Assembly (NCBI RefSeq): GCF_009914755.1
Contig: NC_060943.1
Source: the human T2T-CHM13v2.0 reference genome, Homo sapiens
Direction: 5' to 3' (one strand)
Length of the DNA stretch: 64,000 nt
Shown: in pieces, positions 37,522 through 56,830 of the stretch
Layout of the letters: each line of letters begins with the position of its first letter
Position numbering within the stretch: the stretch's first letter is position 1
The notes under the pieces: model-generated
Told to the model about the DNA's origin: nothing
The model's input: the letters and a program-made list of their open reading frames with translations, nothing else
Databases searched by the model: none
Translations under genes and position numbers: made by a program

Positions 37522-38923
37522 CTATTCAGCGTGCACTTTCTTCACATGGTATTGTAAGGATGCACGCCAAATGAAGGCGTTGCCACAATCCTTACATTTA
37601 TAAGGTTTCTCTCCAGTGTGCATTCTCATGTGCACTCGAAAGCCTGTAAGGAAACTGAAGGGTTTTCCACATTCTTTACATTCATAGGGTTTCTCTCCAG
37701 TATGAATTCGTTCATGTATATGAATATAACTGGAACTACTGAAGGCTTTACCACACTGTTTACATTCATAAGGTTTCTCTCCAGTGTGGGTTCTTTCATG
37801 TATCTGGAAACCTGCAAGAGTAATGTATGTTTTCCCACATTTTTTACATTCATACTGTTTCTTTGCAGTGTGCATCCTTTCATGTCTTCGGGCAGAACTG
37901 CAACAATAAAAGGCTTTCCCACATTCCTTACATTTGTAGGGTTTCTCTCCAGTATGAGTCCTTTCATGTCTTTGAGCTGAGTAGTAGTATCTAAATGCTT
38001 TTCCACATTTTTTACACTCAAAGGGTTTATCTCCAGTGTGAGTACTTTCATGTGCTTGAAAACCTAAAGGAGACAAGTAAGTTTTCCCACACAGTTTACA
38101 TTCATAGTGTTTCTGTGCAGTGTGATTCCTCTCATGTTTTTGAGCAGTACAGTGGTAACTGAAGGCTTTCCCACATTCCTTGCATTTGTAGGGTTTCTCT
38201 CCAGTATGAGTCTTTTCATGTCTTTGAGCAGAGTTGTGATATACGAACACTTTCCCACATTTTTTACATTCATAGGGTTTTTCTCCAGTGTGAGTTCTTT
38301 CATGTGCTTGAAAACCTACAGAAGATATGTAGGTTTTTCCACATTGTTTACATTCATAGCGTTTCTGTACAGTGTGATTCCTTTCATGTGCTCGAGCAGA
38401 ATGGCGGTAAATGAAGGGTTTCCCACATTCCTTACATTTGTAGGGTTTCTCTCCAGTATGAGCCTTTTCATGTTTTTGAGCAGATTGGTGGTATCGGAAT
38501 GCTTTTCCACATTCTTTACACTTAAAGGGTTTATCTCCAGTGTGAGTCCTTCCATGTATTTGGAAAGAACGTTGACAACTGAAGGCTTTCCCACAGGCCT
38601 TACATTTGTAGACTATCCCTGCACTGTGTGTTCTTTTATGTTTTTTAAAAGACTGCAGATAACTGAAGGGTTTCCCACATTTCTTACATTTATATGGCTT
38701 CTCTCCATATTCCTGACACTTATACAGTTTGTGTCTGGTGTAAGATCTAATGTGCCTGTTAAGGGATGAATGATGGCTCAAGACTTTTCCACATACACTG
38801 CTTTCCCAAAGCTTTCCTCCAGAAGGAGTTTTCTTGTTCAGACTGAGATTTGCAATCTGGCTGAAACCTTCTCCGCCATGACTACCTTCTTTACTTTCAC
38901 AGAGTCTCTCTACCATATGATTT
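37522..38923 (-). CDS. Spacer plus 14 C2H2 zinc fingers (terminal exon)
   Basis: Acceptor ttttttacag|AAATCATATG is in frame with ORF 37522-38943. One degenerate finger is followed by 14 intact Cx2C-x12-Hx3/4H fingers; stop TAG at 37524-37522. Confidence 0.93.
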
Positions 38924-41900
38924 CTGTAAAAAATGAGTAGCACATTAATAGTTCATTTTTTAAAGATTTTCTCTTTATTAACTGATACTAGAATAACTAT
39001 TTTTTCCACTTTCAGGGAAAGTACAGATTTTTTTGTCCTGTCTAAATTGCTTGTGAGGTGAATGTACTGAATGCTATGGCCCTGCAAGAGGGCTCAAACA
39101 TAACTGTTATGAAAACAGTGATTTTCATATATGGGTTTCTCTTTTTTTTTTTTTTTGAGACGGAGTCTCACTCTGTCACCCAGGCTACACTCTGTCACCC
39201 AGGCTACACTCTGTCGCCCAGGCTGGAGTGCAGTGGTGCGATCTTGGCTCACTGCAACCTCTGCCACCCGGGTTCAACTGATTCTCCTGCCTCAGCCTCC
39301 TGAGTAGCAGGGATTACAGGCACCTGCCATTGCGCCCGGCTACTTTTTCACTATGTTGCCGAGGCTGGTCTTGAACTCCTGACCTCACAATCCACCCACC
39401 TCGGCTTCCCAAAGTGCTGGGATTATAGGCGGGAGCCACCGCGCCTGGACCATGAACATCTATGCCATATTTAAGAAAGCACTTTGGGGCCAGGCGTGGT
39501 GGCTCACACCTGTAATCCCAGCACTTTGGGAGGCCGAGGCGGGCGGATCACAAGGTCAGGAGATCGAGACCATCCTGGCTAAACACAGTGAAACCCCGTC
39601 TCTACTAAAAATACAAAAAATTAGCCGGGCGTGGTGGTGGGCGCCTGTAGTCCCAGCTACTCGGGAGGCTGAGGCAGGAGAATGGTGTGAACCCAAGAGG
39701 CAGAGCTTGCAGTGAGCCGAGATCACGCCACTGCACTCCAGCTTGGGCGACAGAGCAAGACTCCGTCTCAGAAAAAAAAAAAAAAAAAAGAAAAGAAAGC
39801 ACTTTGGGTTATTTTTATTTATTTATTTTTCCCGAGATGGAGCTTCACTCTTGTTGCCCAGGCTACAGTGCAATGGCACAATCTCGGCTTACTGCAGCCT
39901 CCGCCTCCCGGGTTAAAGCGATTCTCCTGCCTCAGCCTCCGAAGTAGCTGGGATTACAGGCATGTGCCACCATGCCCGGCTAATTTTGTATTTTTAGTAG
40001 AGATGGGGTTTCTCCATGTTGGTCAGGCTGGTCTTGAACTCCCGACCTCAGGTGATCCGGCTGCCTCAGCTTCCCAAAGTGCTGGGATTACAGGCATGAG
40101 CCACTGCGCTAGCTGGGTTAATATTTTCTAAGAACAGATACATTTGAGGCTCAGCTTGTTTTGTTTCTTTAATTATCAAATTTAATGACATACTAAGATT
40201 TTTCTCCTAGAATACTGCTTTCTTTTCTGAGTGTGACTCACCTGAGATTTCTCCCCTGGTTTTTGTACTGCTCTTCAATGTTCCATTCTTTTTGTTTTGT
40301 TCCTGAAATGCAGACCCAGAAAAAATTATCATAAATTATTAGAAATTACAGAAAAATTATTAGATTCTAGGTCCATATGTGACCATGCCTGATTTACAAA
40401 AGAATTTTGCCTTTTCACATTCCACATCTTGGAATAGCATTGATATCCAAGAAAAAGGTATTCTCTAATTCATTCAACAACATGATGGAATGATTTCATT
40501 TTTACCTATAGTGGCCAGGTTCCTGAAGGTTTCCCACATCACGTCTCTGTAGAGTTTTTTCTGTGAAGGATCCAGCAAAGTCCATTCCTCCTGGGTGAAG
40601 TTCACAGCCACATCTTCAAAGGTCACTGAGTCCTAAAACATTCCAAATGTGTGTAAAGGAGAATGGGTGAGACTGACAGCACTGGACATCTATACTCGAG
40701 TCATAAGATGTTCACGATGATTCTGTGATCTCCAGAGATTTATTCTATGAATTTGTTGTCAGAACTCTAACTCTTTGGCCACACTCCCTCAGTAGTTTAT
40801 GAACACACGAAAATTATTTCTACACTTTCACTGTGATCACAATCATATTGCTTTCCAATGGCAGGATCCAGAGCACTCTGGAAAAGTGAGAGAAATGCTG
40901 TACAAAAAAATTCCATTTTAAGACCATCAATTCTTTGTGAGAAAAACTCATCTTCTTCTTATACATCACATCACTCAACATTCCATGAGACACAGGGTCA
41001 AACATGGATAATACGTGGATGAATAAAAGCACACTGAAGAACTAGAAGCTTTTTCTACTATTCCCATCACTAAGCATGAGAACAAGAGGCACGTGGAAAT
41101 CAAACTTGTAACAATATTTACCTGACCATATTGTCCTGAGGTACTCTAGGATATTCGAGGTAGTCAGATCCAGCCAATTCAATCAAAATATTTCTTTTGG
41201 AGAAGTTGGCTGGGCACAATGGCTCACACGTGTAATCCTAGCACTTTGGGAGGCCGAGGCGGGCAGATTATCTGAGCTCAAGAGTTCGAGACCAGCCTGG
41301 GCAACATGGTGAAACCCTGTCTTGGTGGCTCACACCTGTAATCCCAGCACTTTGGGAGACCGAGGAGGGTGGATCACCTGAGGTCGGGGGTTCCAGACCA
41401 GCCTGGCTAAAATGGTGAAACCCCATCTCTACTAAAAATACAAAATTAGCTGGGTGTGGTGGTGCATGCCTATAATTCCAGCTACTTAGGAGGCTGAGGC
41501 AGGAGAATCACTTGAATCTGGGAGGTGGAGGGTACAGTGAGCCAAGATCGCACATTGCACTCCAGCCTGGGCAACGGAGCGAGACTCTGTCTCAAAAAAA
41601 AAAAAAAATTAGCTGGGTGTAGTGGTGCGCATCTCTAATCCCAGCTACTCAGGGGGCTGAGGCACGAGAATAGCTTGAGCCTGGGAGGCAGAGGTTGCAG
41701 TGAGCTGAGATAGCACCACTTCTCTCCACCCCAGAGAAGTGTTCATTTTCACTATTTGTGTTAATATTTATCAGAGACTTATTTCTTTCTGTCCCATTTC
41801 ATGGAGCTATTAAGTTACTGGGAAGTTAGAGCTCAGGCATGAGGAATAAAGCATGACAACTTTAGATAAAATCTCTACACTTCTGAGCCTCAGGGATACT

Positions 41901-56552: not shown

Positions 56553-56830
56553 TTCCTGGACTCCAGGGTGTCCCAGCATCCTCCTGATGGCTCTCCTGGC
56601 CACAGCAGGGCAAATCGCGACACACCCTGAGCTGACACACCCTCAGCACTTTCAGAGAAGCCGAGAGCGACCCGAGGGCGCCAAGGCGAGAGGGAAAAAA
56701 AACCCAAACCCACGAGCTTTAGCGCGTCGCCCCGCCTGCTGCCCTACAGCACGCCTGATTGGACTGTTGGCACGGCCCCGCCCTCAGAACCCCTAATTGG
56801 ATAGTGCCCTAGGCCCCTCCCCCTGGGGTG
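56200..56830 (-). promoter_or_regulatory. CpG-island promoter / first exon of the intact KRAB-ZNF gene
   Basis: CpG-rich stretch. CCAAT boxes (plus-strand ATTGG at 56758-56762 and 56796-56800) and a GC box (GGCCCCGCCC at 56774-56783) lie upstream of the ATG exon. Confidence 0.8.
56550..56552 (-). CDS. Exon 1 coding part (ATG only) of the intact KRAB-ZNF gene
   Basis: Minus strand reads ...ccaggaaATG|gtgagtgtg, an ATG followed directly by a consensus donor, inside a CpG island. Confidence 0.8.

What the first reader, a model, noticed from the sequence alone, without database searches (positions are those of the whole stretch)
37522..56830. Complete, apparently functional 530-aa KRAB zinc-finger gene hidden just downstream of ZNF44
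Seen in sequence: a CpG promoter with CCAAT and GC boxes, an ATG|GTGAGT exon, stop-free 127-bp KRAB-A and 61-bp KRAB-B exons with canonical splice sites, and a 1402-bp finger exon, all in one frame. The neighbouring paralog has accumulated stops, indels and a dead acceptor in the same exons, so the intactness here suggests purifying selection (inference). The finger sequences differ from ZNF44 and I do not recognise the protein as a named human ZNF. It may be unannotated, or folded into ZNF44 as a minor or read-through transcript. By established knowledge it would be a TRIM28/KAP1-recruiting repressor, possibly of transposons.
Basis: partly seen in the sequence, partly recalled or inferred. 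Interest (0 to 1): 0.88.

Follow-up and report, generated by a model that had tools for sequence, protein, structure and literature searches.

The report
Intact unnamed KRAB zinc-finger gene beside ZNF44
Just downstream of human ZNF44 lies a complete, unbroken gene for a 530-residue KRAB zinc-finger repressor that has no name or protein record of its own, appearing only as "ZNF44_alt" in one census table and as extra exons of ZNF44; it is an ordinary member of a very large family.

Summary
Four minus-strand exons (ATG at 56552-56550; 40632-40506; 40302-40242; 38923-37522) join through canonical splice sites into a 530-codon frame with one terminal stop. It encodes a KRAB-A box, a KRAB-B exon and 14 intact C2H2 fingers. 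The first exon and promoter are paralogous to those of neighbouring zinc-finger genes.

The gene is old and single-copy. No human paralog exceeds 61% identity, and dS to paralogs is at least 0.74. Its own branch has dN/dS of about 0.34. An array-internal triplication shows a constrained scaffold with fast-changing DNA-contact residues.

It is not wholly new. The KZFP census of de Tribolet-Hardy et al. 2023 lists the locus as "ZNF44_alt", with no biotype or age. RefSeq carries all its exons inside ZNF44 read-through models. No identical or near-identical protein turned up in three searches of a 5.8-billion-protein database.

Present-day function is not shown. The ORF could stay intact by chance for 12-32 million years. 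The annotated transcripts look like poor templates: 42 upstream ATGs in one model, and a stop codon 4.6 kb before a downstream splice junction.

Verdict: a new, barely noted member of a known kind, of moderate interest.

The parts
56200..56830 (-). CpG-rich promoter region with two CCAAT boxes (56800, 56762) and one GC box (56783). It runs on into intron 1.
   Evidence: Composition is and motifs. The proximal block (query 32-119 of 56860-56480) matches 7 of 11 paralogous loci at 74-79% identity.
56550..56579 (-). 3' end of exon 1. The family-conserved start ATG is at 56552-56550, directly followed by the donor GTGAGT. A lineage-specific in-frame upstream ATG at 56579-56577 would add 9 residues, giving 540 aa.
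   Evidence: In the alignment of 12 paralogous exon-1 loci, 10 of the 11 others keep ATG|GT and none has the upstream ATG. The true transcription start is unknown.
40506..40632 (-). Exon 2, the KRAB-A box, 127 nt.
   Evidence: Pfam PF01352, 91.2 bits, E=2.9e-26. The hub's RefSeq table has the same borders.
40242..40302 (-). Exon 3, the KRAB-B exon, 61 nt.
   Evidence: Open frame and canonical splice sites. A decayed homologue lies at 24733-24614. The hub's RefSeq table has the same borders.
37522..38923 (-). Coding part of exon 4: a spacer with degenerate fingers, 14 intact C2H2 fingers, and the stop TAG at 37524-37522.
   Evidence: TRF finds an 84-nt period in 12.5 copies and a 252-nt period in 3.6 copies with 81% matches.
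36803..36848 (-). Cluster of three AATAAA hexamers 681-716 nt after the stop codon. This is a candidate polyadenylation site for a stand-alone mRNA.
   Evidence: Sequence only, so its use is not shown.
32952..37521 (-). Remainder of RefSeq exon 32952-38923. It ends at a donor, CAG|GTAATT, that I read as lying inside an antisense Alu. In the read-through models, therefore, the stop codon lies 4.6 kb upstream of a splice junction.

Best explanation
This is a genuine, structurally complete KRAB zinc-finger gene, listed as ZNF44_alt in one census. It is an old, single-copy member of the chr19p13.2 cluster and sits 5.3 kb downstream of the ZNF44 poly(A) site.

Shown:
- It has the family's four-exon layout and a paralogous CpG/CCAAT promoter.
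- It has a standard KRAB-A box and 14 intact fingers.
- Its own lineage carries a record of purifying selection on the scaffold, together with diversification of DNA-contact residues.

Inferred:
- When transcribed from its own promoter and polyadenylated about 0.7 kb after the stop, it would give a 530-aa protein.
- That protein would bind a long DNA site (up to about 42 bp), most likely in a transposable element, and recruit TRIM28/KAP1 to silence it, as its paralogs do.
- Annotation pipelines file it under ZNF44 because read-through transcripts join the two units.
For: - ORF and splice sites are confirmed.
- KRAB scores 91.2 bits and the zinc-finger profiles match strongly.
- The exon-1 region is homologous to 11 other loci, and 10 of those 11 keep ATG|GT.
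- The gene is single-copy. The spacer matches only itself at 100%; the next best are 67% (partial) and 64%.
- It diverged deeply from 8 paralogs: 54-61% amino-acid identity, dS 0.74-1.29, dN/dS 0.24-0.40.
- Its own-branch dN/dS has a median of 0.34 over 28 trios, IQR 0.30-0.38. The paralogs give 0.27-0.46.
- A three-finger module is triplicated. Between the copies, scaffold dN/dS is 0.26-0.36 and contact-residue dN/dS is 0.97-3.3.
- The 'VMWET' form of KRAB-A is shared with 4 of the 29 other nearest KRAB-A exons, including ZNF136. The census table tags ZNF136 'sk REP'. The paper's figure legends explain K as standard KRAB and REP as repressor according to Tycko et al..
- The hub's RefSeq table has exons with identical borders, so the junctions are in transcript models.
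- AATAAA hexamers lie 681-716 nt after the stop.
Against: - No protein record of it was found in any of three length classes. No high-identity primate ortholog was found either, although gene predictors run on many primate genomes might have produced one.
- The only RefSeq exon that uses the 56550 donor starts 3 kb upstream, with no acceptor before it, in what I read as an Alu. It holds 44 ATGs, 42 of them upstream of the two near the donor.
- In those models the finger exon is internal, so the stop codon would invite nonsense-mediated decay.
- ORF intactness alone excludes neutrality only beyond 12-32 My.
- The branch dN/dS measure gave 0.43 for L004. That ORF lies in LOC100289333, which RefSeq labels a transcribed pseudogene. 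The measure therefore does not separate living genes from recently dead ones.
- The census gives the locus no biotype and no age.
Confidence: 0.6

Rival explanations
1. It is a relic. The ORF was a working KZFP gene for most of its history but has been released from constraint recently, within roughly the last 10-30 My. It is still open by chance and is now seen only as untranslated, decay-prone exons of ZNF44 read-through RNA.
For: - P(intact | neutral) stays above 0.05 for 12-32 My, depending on the rates assumed.
- The annotated models are poor templates: a 3-kb leader with 44 ATGs, and a stop 4.6 kb before a splice junction.
- No protein or ortholog record exists.
- The adjacent paralog has already decayed.
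- L004, in the pseudogene LOC100289333, also keeps a 355-aa open finger frame.
Against: - All 14 fingers, the start codon, the six splice sites and the promoter motifs are intact together.
- The scaffold is constrained after the internal triplication.
- Poly(A) signals for a short mRNA exist.
Confidence: 0.25
2. It is a second coding cassette of ZNF44 rather than a separate gene. In this family exon 1 contributes only the ATG, so splicing from ZNF44's own first coding exon to the KRAB-A exon at 40632 would encode the same 530-aa protein under ZNF44's promoter.
For: - The ATG|GT exon-1 design is shared across the cluster.
- ZNF44 read-through models already splice into these exons (and the hub table).
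- The census authors named it ZNF44_alt and list a similar ZNF568_alt.
Against: - The unit has its own conserved promoter block and CpG island.
- The read-through junction I could test in the window is not productive. Joining 62776 to 40632 gives an immediate TGA.
- The exon ending at 60049 carries the whole ZNF44 coding region, whose stop is at 62696-62698 per the hub table, so any splice from its donor lies after that stop.
- ZNF44's 5' exons lie outside the window and were not examined.
Confidence: 0.15

Closest known systems
ZNF44_alt, a row in Supplemental Table S1 of de Tribolet-Hardy et al. 2023, Genome Res 33:1409 (PMC10547255)
   Same: It is the same locus. The row reads hg19 chr19:12358100-12361177, minus strand, cluster chr19.3. 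The T2T-minus-hg19 offset is about 17,421 at ZNF136 and about 17,485 at ZNF44. An offset of 17,455 puts the row's upper end on the KRAB-A exon start at 40632, and its lower end then falls within about 30 bp of the last finger.
   Different: The table gives only an interval found by KRAB and zinc-finger HMM hits, with biotype, age and constraint all 'NA'. Nothing is said there of exon structure, ORF integrity, promoter or selection. The name appears nowhere in the main text of any held paper. No ChIP data set is listed for it: Table S2 has a single ZNF44 entry.
ZNF44 (RefSeq gene, NM_016264.4 and 14 other transcripts)
   Same: Same strand and same cluster. RefSeq places the exons of this unit among ZNF44's alternative transcripts.
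   Different: The long finger-exon matches are only 45-51% identical. The unit has its own KRAB exons, start codon and promoter. Read-through junctions do not fuse the two reading frames.
Cluster paralogs: ZNF564 (L002), ZNF136 (L025), ZNF433 (L009), ZNF14 (L005). ZNF564, ZNF433 and ZNF14 are named by matching locus positions to census coordinates, and ZNF136 by the hub's gene span.
   Same: They share the four-exon layout. KRAB-A identity is 76-86% and exon 1 and promoter are homologous. ZNF136 shares the VMWET form of KRAB-A.
   Different: Finger-exon identity to the eight closest paralog loci compared (which include ZNF564, ZNF14 and ZNF433 but not ZNF136) is 54-61%. Contact residues differ throughout, and none of the 8 aligned paralogs shows the 'YHxSAQ / GFQAH' three-finger module. 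The DNA target therefore cannot be carried over from them.

Membership tests
KRAB zinc-finger protein (KZFP) gene | N-terminal KRAB-A box | tested here: met
   Pfam PF01352 scores 91.2 bits against a cut-off of 20.4, over positions 1-40 of 42.
KRAB zinc-finger protein (KZFP) gene | Tandem C2H2 fingers with all zinc ligands present | tested here: met
   14 fingers match C..C.{12}H.{3,4}H. zf-C2H2 has E=3.3e-57 and zf-H2C2_2 has E=6e-99.
KRAB zinc-finger protein (KZFP) gene | Cluster-typical exon layout: an ATG-only first coding exon, a 127-nt KRAB-A exon, a 61-nt KRAB-B exon and a single finger exon, all in phase | tested here: met
KRAB zinc-finger protein (KZFP) gene | KRAB-B box recognised by a profile | not tested
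   The exon is only 19 whole codons and the Pfam model covers the A box. The only evidence is an open frame and similarity to the decayed neighbour's B exon.
TRIM28/KAP1-recruiting standard-KRAB repressor | KRAB binds TRIM28 and represses a reporter | not testable with these tools
   The evidence is indirect. The DV and EEW motifs are present, and the usual MLE is MWE here (the importance of these motifs is recalled, not taken from a call). The MWE form is shared with ZNF136, which the census tags 'sk REP'.
TRIM28/KAP1-recruiting standard-KRAB repressor | Sequence-specific genomic targets, typically a transposable-element subfamily | not testable with these tools
   No ChIP data set is listed for ZNF44_alt in census Table S2.
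Expressed protein-coding gene | Spliced transcripts using the predicted junctions | tested here: inconclusive
   The hub's RefSeq table has exons with identical borders. One search shows those models are ZNF44 read-through forms or start in what I read as an Alu. No model starts at the CpG island.
Expressed protein-coding gene | Purifying selection on the ORF | tested here: met
   This was met only for its long-term history. Own-branch dN/dS is 0.34 and scaffold dN/dS between internal modules is 0.26-0.36. Recent constraint was not testable because no primate genomes are held.
Expressed protein-coding gene | An existing protein record or evidence of translation | tested here: not met
   No identical or near-identical protein was found at 256-816 aa (best identity 54% among the 120 listed). 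None was found at 30-255 aa (best is a 135-aa unnamed fragment) or at 817-2330 aa. Ribo-seq and mass-spectrometry data were not available.

The most novel reading that the evidence does not exclude
A working human transcription-factor gene is still missing from the reference protein sets. On this reading, ZNF44_alt is transcribed from its own CpG promoter and translated into a 530-aa TRIM28-recruiting repressor. Its finger array, built by triplication of a three-finger module, would recognise a transposable-element family that no profiled KZFP accounts for. The gene would have escaped naming only because read-through RNA ties it to ZNF44.
Probability: 0.4. Interest if true: 0.55.

Novelty: new member of a known kind. 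Interest (0 to 1): 0.4.

Why it matters
If it is translated, the human catalogue of about 378 coding KZFPs lacks one member. Variant interpretation, exome capture, expression quantification (reads are currently credited to ZNF44) and KZFP-transposon target maps would all omit it. It also illustrates a general annotation blind spot. In tandem clusters where exon 1 supplies only the ATG, read-through transcripts let pipelines merge a downstream gene into its neighbour. The census's ZNF568_alt may be a second case. If it is not translated, it is a well-preserved example of a KZFP at the very start of decay, next to a fully decayed copy.

Tried and rejected
- Text searches for 'ZNF504' and 'ZNF44_alt' found 0 papers. 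Searches for 'ZNF44', KZFP catalogues, T2T and KZFP and the Huntley catalogue gave nothing on this locus.
- Huntley et al. 2006 (PMC1457042) is not held. Imbeault et al. 2017 and its tables were not sought. Either may list the locus.
- The idea that old symbol ZNF504, an alias of ZNF44 in census Table S2, once meant this unit could not be checked.
- Protein P0122 is from an unnamed 804-base record. It matches 73 residues of the spacer exactly but differs sharply on both flanks. I did not use it as an ortholog because the pattern looks like a chimeric or low-quality contig.
- Absolute dating from dS was dropped. Values of 0.7-1.3 are saturated and are inflated by non-orthologous finger alignment.
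- The Rfam scan of 30-60 kb gave one hit, Metazoa_SRP at 53544-53660. It sits in intron 1 and is probably an Alu-type repeat, so it is not part of the gene.
- No structure or complex prediction was run. A KRAB-TRIM28 pass would reflect likeness to solved pairs, and no human reference chain is offered.
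Full report
**Observation.**
- Exon 1 ends in ...CCAGGAAATG followed by GTGAGT, with the ATG at 56552-56550.
- The KRAB-A exon runs 40632-40506 (127 nt) and the KRAB-B exon 40302-40242 (61 nt). Both are flanked by AG and GT.
- A stop-free frame of 476 codons spans 38952-37522, and the acceptor TTTACAG ends at 38924.
- Joined in a script, the four pieces give 1593 nt: 530 codons and one terminal stop, TAG.
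- Pfam scores the KRAB-A exon at 91.2 bits against a cut-off of 20.4. The finger exon matches zf-C2H2 at E=3.3e-57 and zf-H2C2_2 at E=6e-99.
- A regex finds 14 fingers with all four zinc ligands.
- Two CCAAT boxes (56800, 56762) and a GC box (56783) lie upstream of the ATG.
- The 56200-56799 region has GC 0.67-0.71 and CpG observed/expected 0.60-0.64. Just upstream the ratio falls to 0.18.
- An in-frame ATG at 56579 would add nine residues.

**The neighbour.**
- An exon-1-like sequence ending ATG|GTGAGT lies at 27697.
- A KRAB-A-like stretch at 25029-24949 has two TAG stops, and its acceptor AG has become CG.
- A KRAB-B-like stretch at 24733-24614 carries stops.
- tblastn found no finger exon for it in the window.

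**Place in the family.**
- In the whole T2T assembly the spacer between KRAB and fingers matches only itself at 100%. The next best are 67% (partial) and 64%, out of 87 matches. The gene is therefore single-copy.
- The exon-1 region matches other chr19 KZFP loci. In an alignment of the 12 loci fetched, 10 of the 11 others keep ATG followed by GT. None has the upstream ATG. 7 of 11 also match the CCAAT/GC block at 74-79% identity. The promoter and first exon are thus an ordinary family module, not a chance CpG patch.
- KRAB-A is 71-88% identical to the 29 other nearest KRAB-A exons. Its unusual tryptophan (VMWET, where I recall the consensus as MLE) is shared by 4 of those 29, including ZNF136.
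- The census of de Tribolet-Hardy et al. tags ZNF136 'sk REP'. The paper's figure legends explain K as standard KRAB and REP as repressor according to Tycko et al. (passages read).

**Selection.** These figures come from my own Nei-Gojobori scripts on MAFFT alignments. Synonymous distances are saturated, so only the ratios are worth reading.
- Against 8 paralogous finger exons, amino-acid identity is 54-61%, dN is 0.26-0.33, dS is 0.74-1.29 and dN/dS is 0.24-0.40.
- Three-taxon branch estimates give this gene's own branch a median dN/dS of 0.34 over 28 trios (IQR 0.30-0.38). The paralogs fall between 0.27 and 0.46.
- L004 is an open 355-aa finger frame in LOC100289333, which RefSeq calls a transcribed pseudogene. 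It gives 0.43, so the measure cannot detect recent death.
- A second test needs no orthologs. Fingers 3-5, 6-8 and 9-11 form a 252-nt module present three times. TRF reports period 252, 3.6 copies and 81% matches. Corresponding fingers are 79-88% identical at the DNA level.
- None of the 8 aligned paralogs shows this module.
- Between the copies, dN/dS outside the recognition helix is 0.26-0.36. At the four contact positions it is 0.97-3.3 (counts are small). A conserved scaffold with fast-changing contacts is the usual signature of a working KZFP. Here it arose inside this gene's own lineage.

**Limits of the intact-ORF argument.** 4.4% of weighted substitutions in this CDS would create a stop. 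Adding frameshifting indels at 0.08-0.125 per substitution and rates of 0.5-1.0e-9 per site per year (assumed values), the chance of staying intact under neutrality falls below 0.05 only after 12-32 My. The ORF therefore argues against an old pseudogene. It does not argue against a loss of function within the ape lineage.

**What is annotated.**
- The hub's RefSeq table lists exons 40242-40302, 40506-40632 and 32952-38923, plus one exon ending at 56550, all under ZNF44. The junctions are therefore in transcript models.
- Exon 56550-59593 has no acceptor before it. It begins in what I read as an Alu, so it is a model 5' end. It holds 44 ATGs, 42 of them upstream of the two near the donor.
- Exons ending at 60049 and 62776 have GT donors, so they are ZNF44 read-through forms.
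- A 62776-to-40632 junction gives an immediate TGA.
- Exon 32952-38923 ends at a donor I read as lying in an antisense Alu, and splices on to the decayed neighbour's exons. This places the stop codon 4.6 kb before a junction.
- These models are poor templates for the protein.
- A stand-alone mRNA is possible on sequence grounds. From a start in the CpG island, the only ATG upstream of the conserved start within 300 nt of the donor is the in-frame one at 56579. Three AATAAA hexamers lie 681-716 nt after the stop.

**Prior knowledge.**
- Supplemental Table S1 of de Tribolet-Hardy et al. 2023 (PMC10547255; I read Table S1 rows, methods section 12 and text passages) has this row: chr19 12358100-12361177, ZNF44_alt, minus strand, with biotype, age and constraint all NA, in cluster chr19.3.
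- The T2T-minus-hg19 offset is about 17,421 at ZNF136 and about 17,485 at ZNF44. An offset of 17,455 puts the row's upper end on the KRAB-A exon start at 40632. The lower end then falls within about 30 bp of the last finger. It is this locus.
- The census found 467 KRAB/finger pairs, of which 378 are called protein-coding. ZNF44_alt carries no biotype.
- A like-named ZNF568_alt is in the same table.
- The supplementary PDF of that paper could not be read and may say more.

**Protein databases.** I ran three searches of about 5.8 billion proteins, whose listed sources include NCBI, nr and UniRef.
- At 256-816 aa, 7625 of the 8000 scored candidates passed E<=1e-20, and the highest identity among the 120 listed was 54%.
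- At 30-255 aa, using spacer residues 1-110, there were 7 hits. The best was an unnamed 135-aa fragment.
- At 817-2330 aa there were 2 hits, the better at 45% identity.
- An identical or orthologous protein would have outscored everything listed. As far as that collection goes, neither the human protein nor a predicted primate ortholog is on record.

**Mechanism.** Domain content, gene layout and past selection are shown. The rest is inferred from the family: the KRAB-A/B module recruits TRIM28/KAP1 and its heterochromatin machinery, and the 14 fingers read a long DNA site, most likely inside a transposable element. The contact residues resemble those of no aligned paralog, so no target can be borrowed.

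**Verdict.** The unit is an intact, long-constrained KZFP gene. It is known only as a census row and as ZNF44 read-through exons, with no protein record. Whether it functions today is open. I put a live coding gene at 0.6, a recent relic at 0.25 and a ZNF44 cassette at 0.15. It is a new, barely noted member of a very well-known kind. That matters for annotation but would not surprise specialists.

Noticed in passing
window 24590-28249, minus strand: A decayed paralog of the hidden gene. Its exon-1-like ATG|GTGAGT ends at 27697. KRAB-A (25029-24949) has two TAG stops and its acceptor AG has become CG. The KRAB-B-like stretch (24733-24614) has stops. No finger exon was found. RefSeq models reuse parts of it as exons 27697-28249 and 24912-25153 of ZNF44 read-through transcripts.
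   Followed up: partly
window 32940-33010, minus strand: RefSeq exon 32952-38923 ends at a donor, CAG|GTAATT, that I read as lying inside an antisense Alu. This is an Alu-derived splice site that turns the finger exon into a 5.97-kb internal exon.
   Followed up: partly
window 40505-40506: The RefSeq table lists two KRAB-A exon ends 1 nt apart. The 40505 form would have a non-canonical TA donor, so it may be a projection or alignment artefact.
   Followed up: no
L004 = G000:C19:12334914-12338147 (just before the window start), plus strand: A 355-aa open frame with 10 intact fingers, and a KRAB-A exon (L028), lie inside LOC100289333, which RefSeq labels a transcribed pseudogene. Its spacer is the closest partial match to the hidden gene, at 67%.
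   Followed up: partly
protein P0122 (unnamed 804-base record): A 135-aa predicted protein has a 73-residue block identical to the hidden gene's spacer, but sharply different flanks on both sides. It may be a chimeric contig or a diverged copy. Unexplained.
   Followed up: partly
window 53544-53660, minus strand: An Rfam Metazoa_SRP match at 70.7 bits, just over the gathering score of 70, inside intron 1. It is probably an Alu or 7SL-derived repeat.
   Followed up: no
hg19 chr19:37482080-37488600 (census Table S1, not in this window): ZNF568_alt is a second KRAB/finger pair that the census files under a neighbouring gene's name with no biotype. It may be another merged downstream KZFP unit.
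   Followed up: no
window 37656-38566, minus strand: The finger array holds a 252-nt, three-finger module in three copies (fingers 3-5, 6-8, 9-11). Each copy has one non-canonical linker (HTVQKR, HTAQKH, HTAKKQ) in place of the usual TGEKP.
   Followed up: yes
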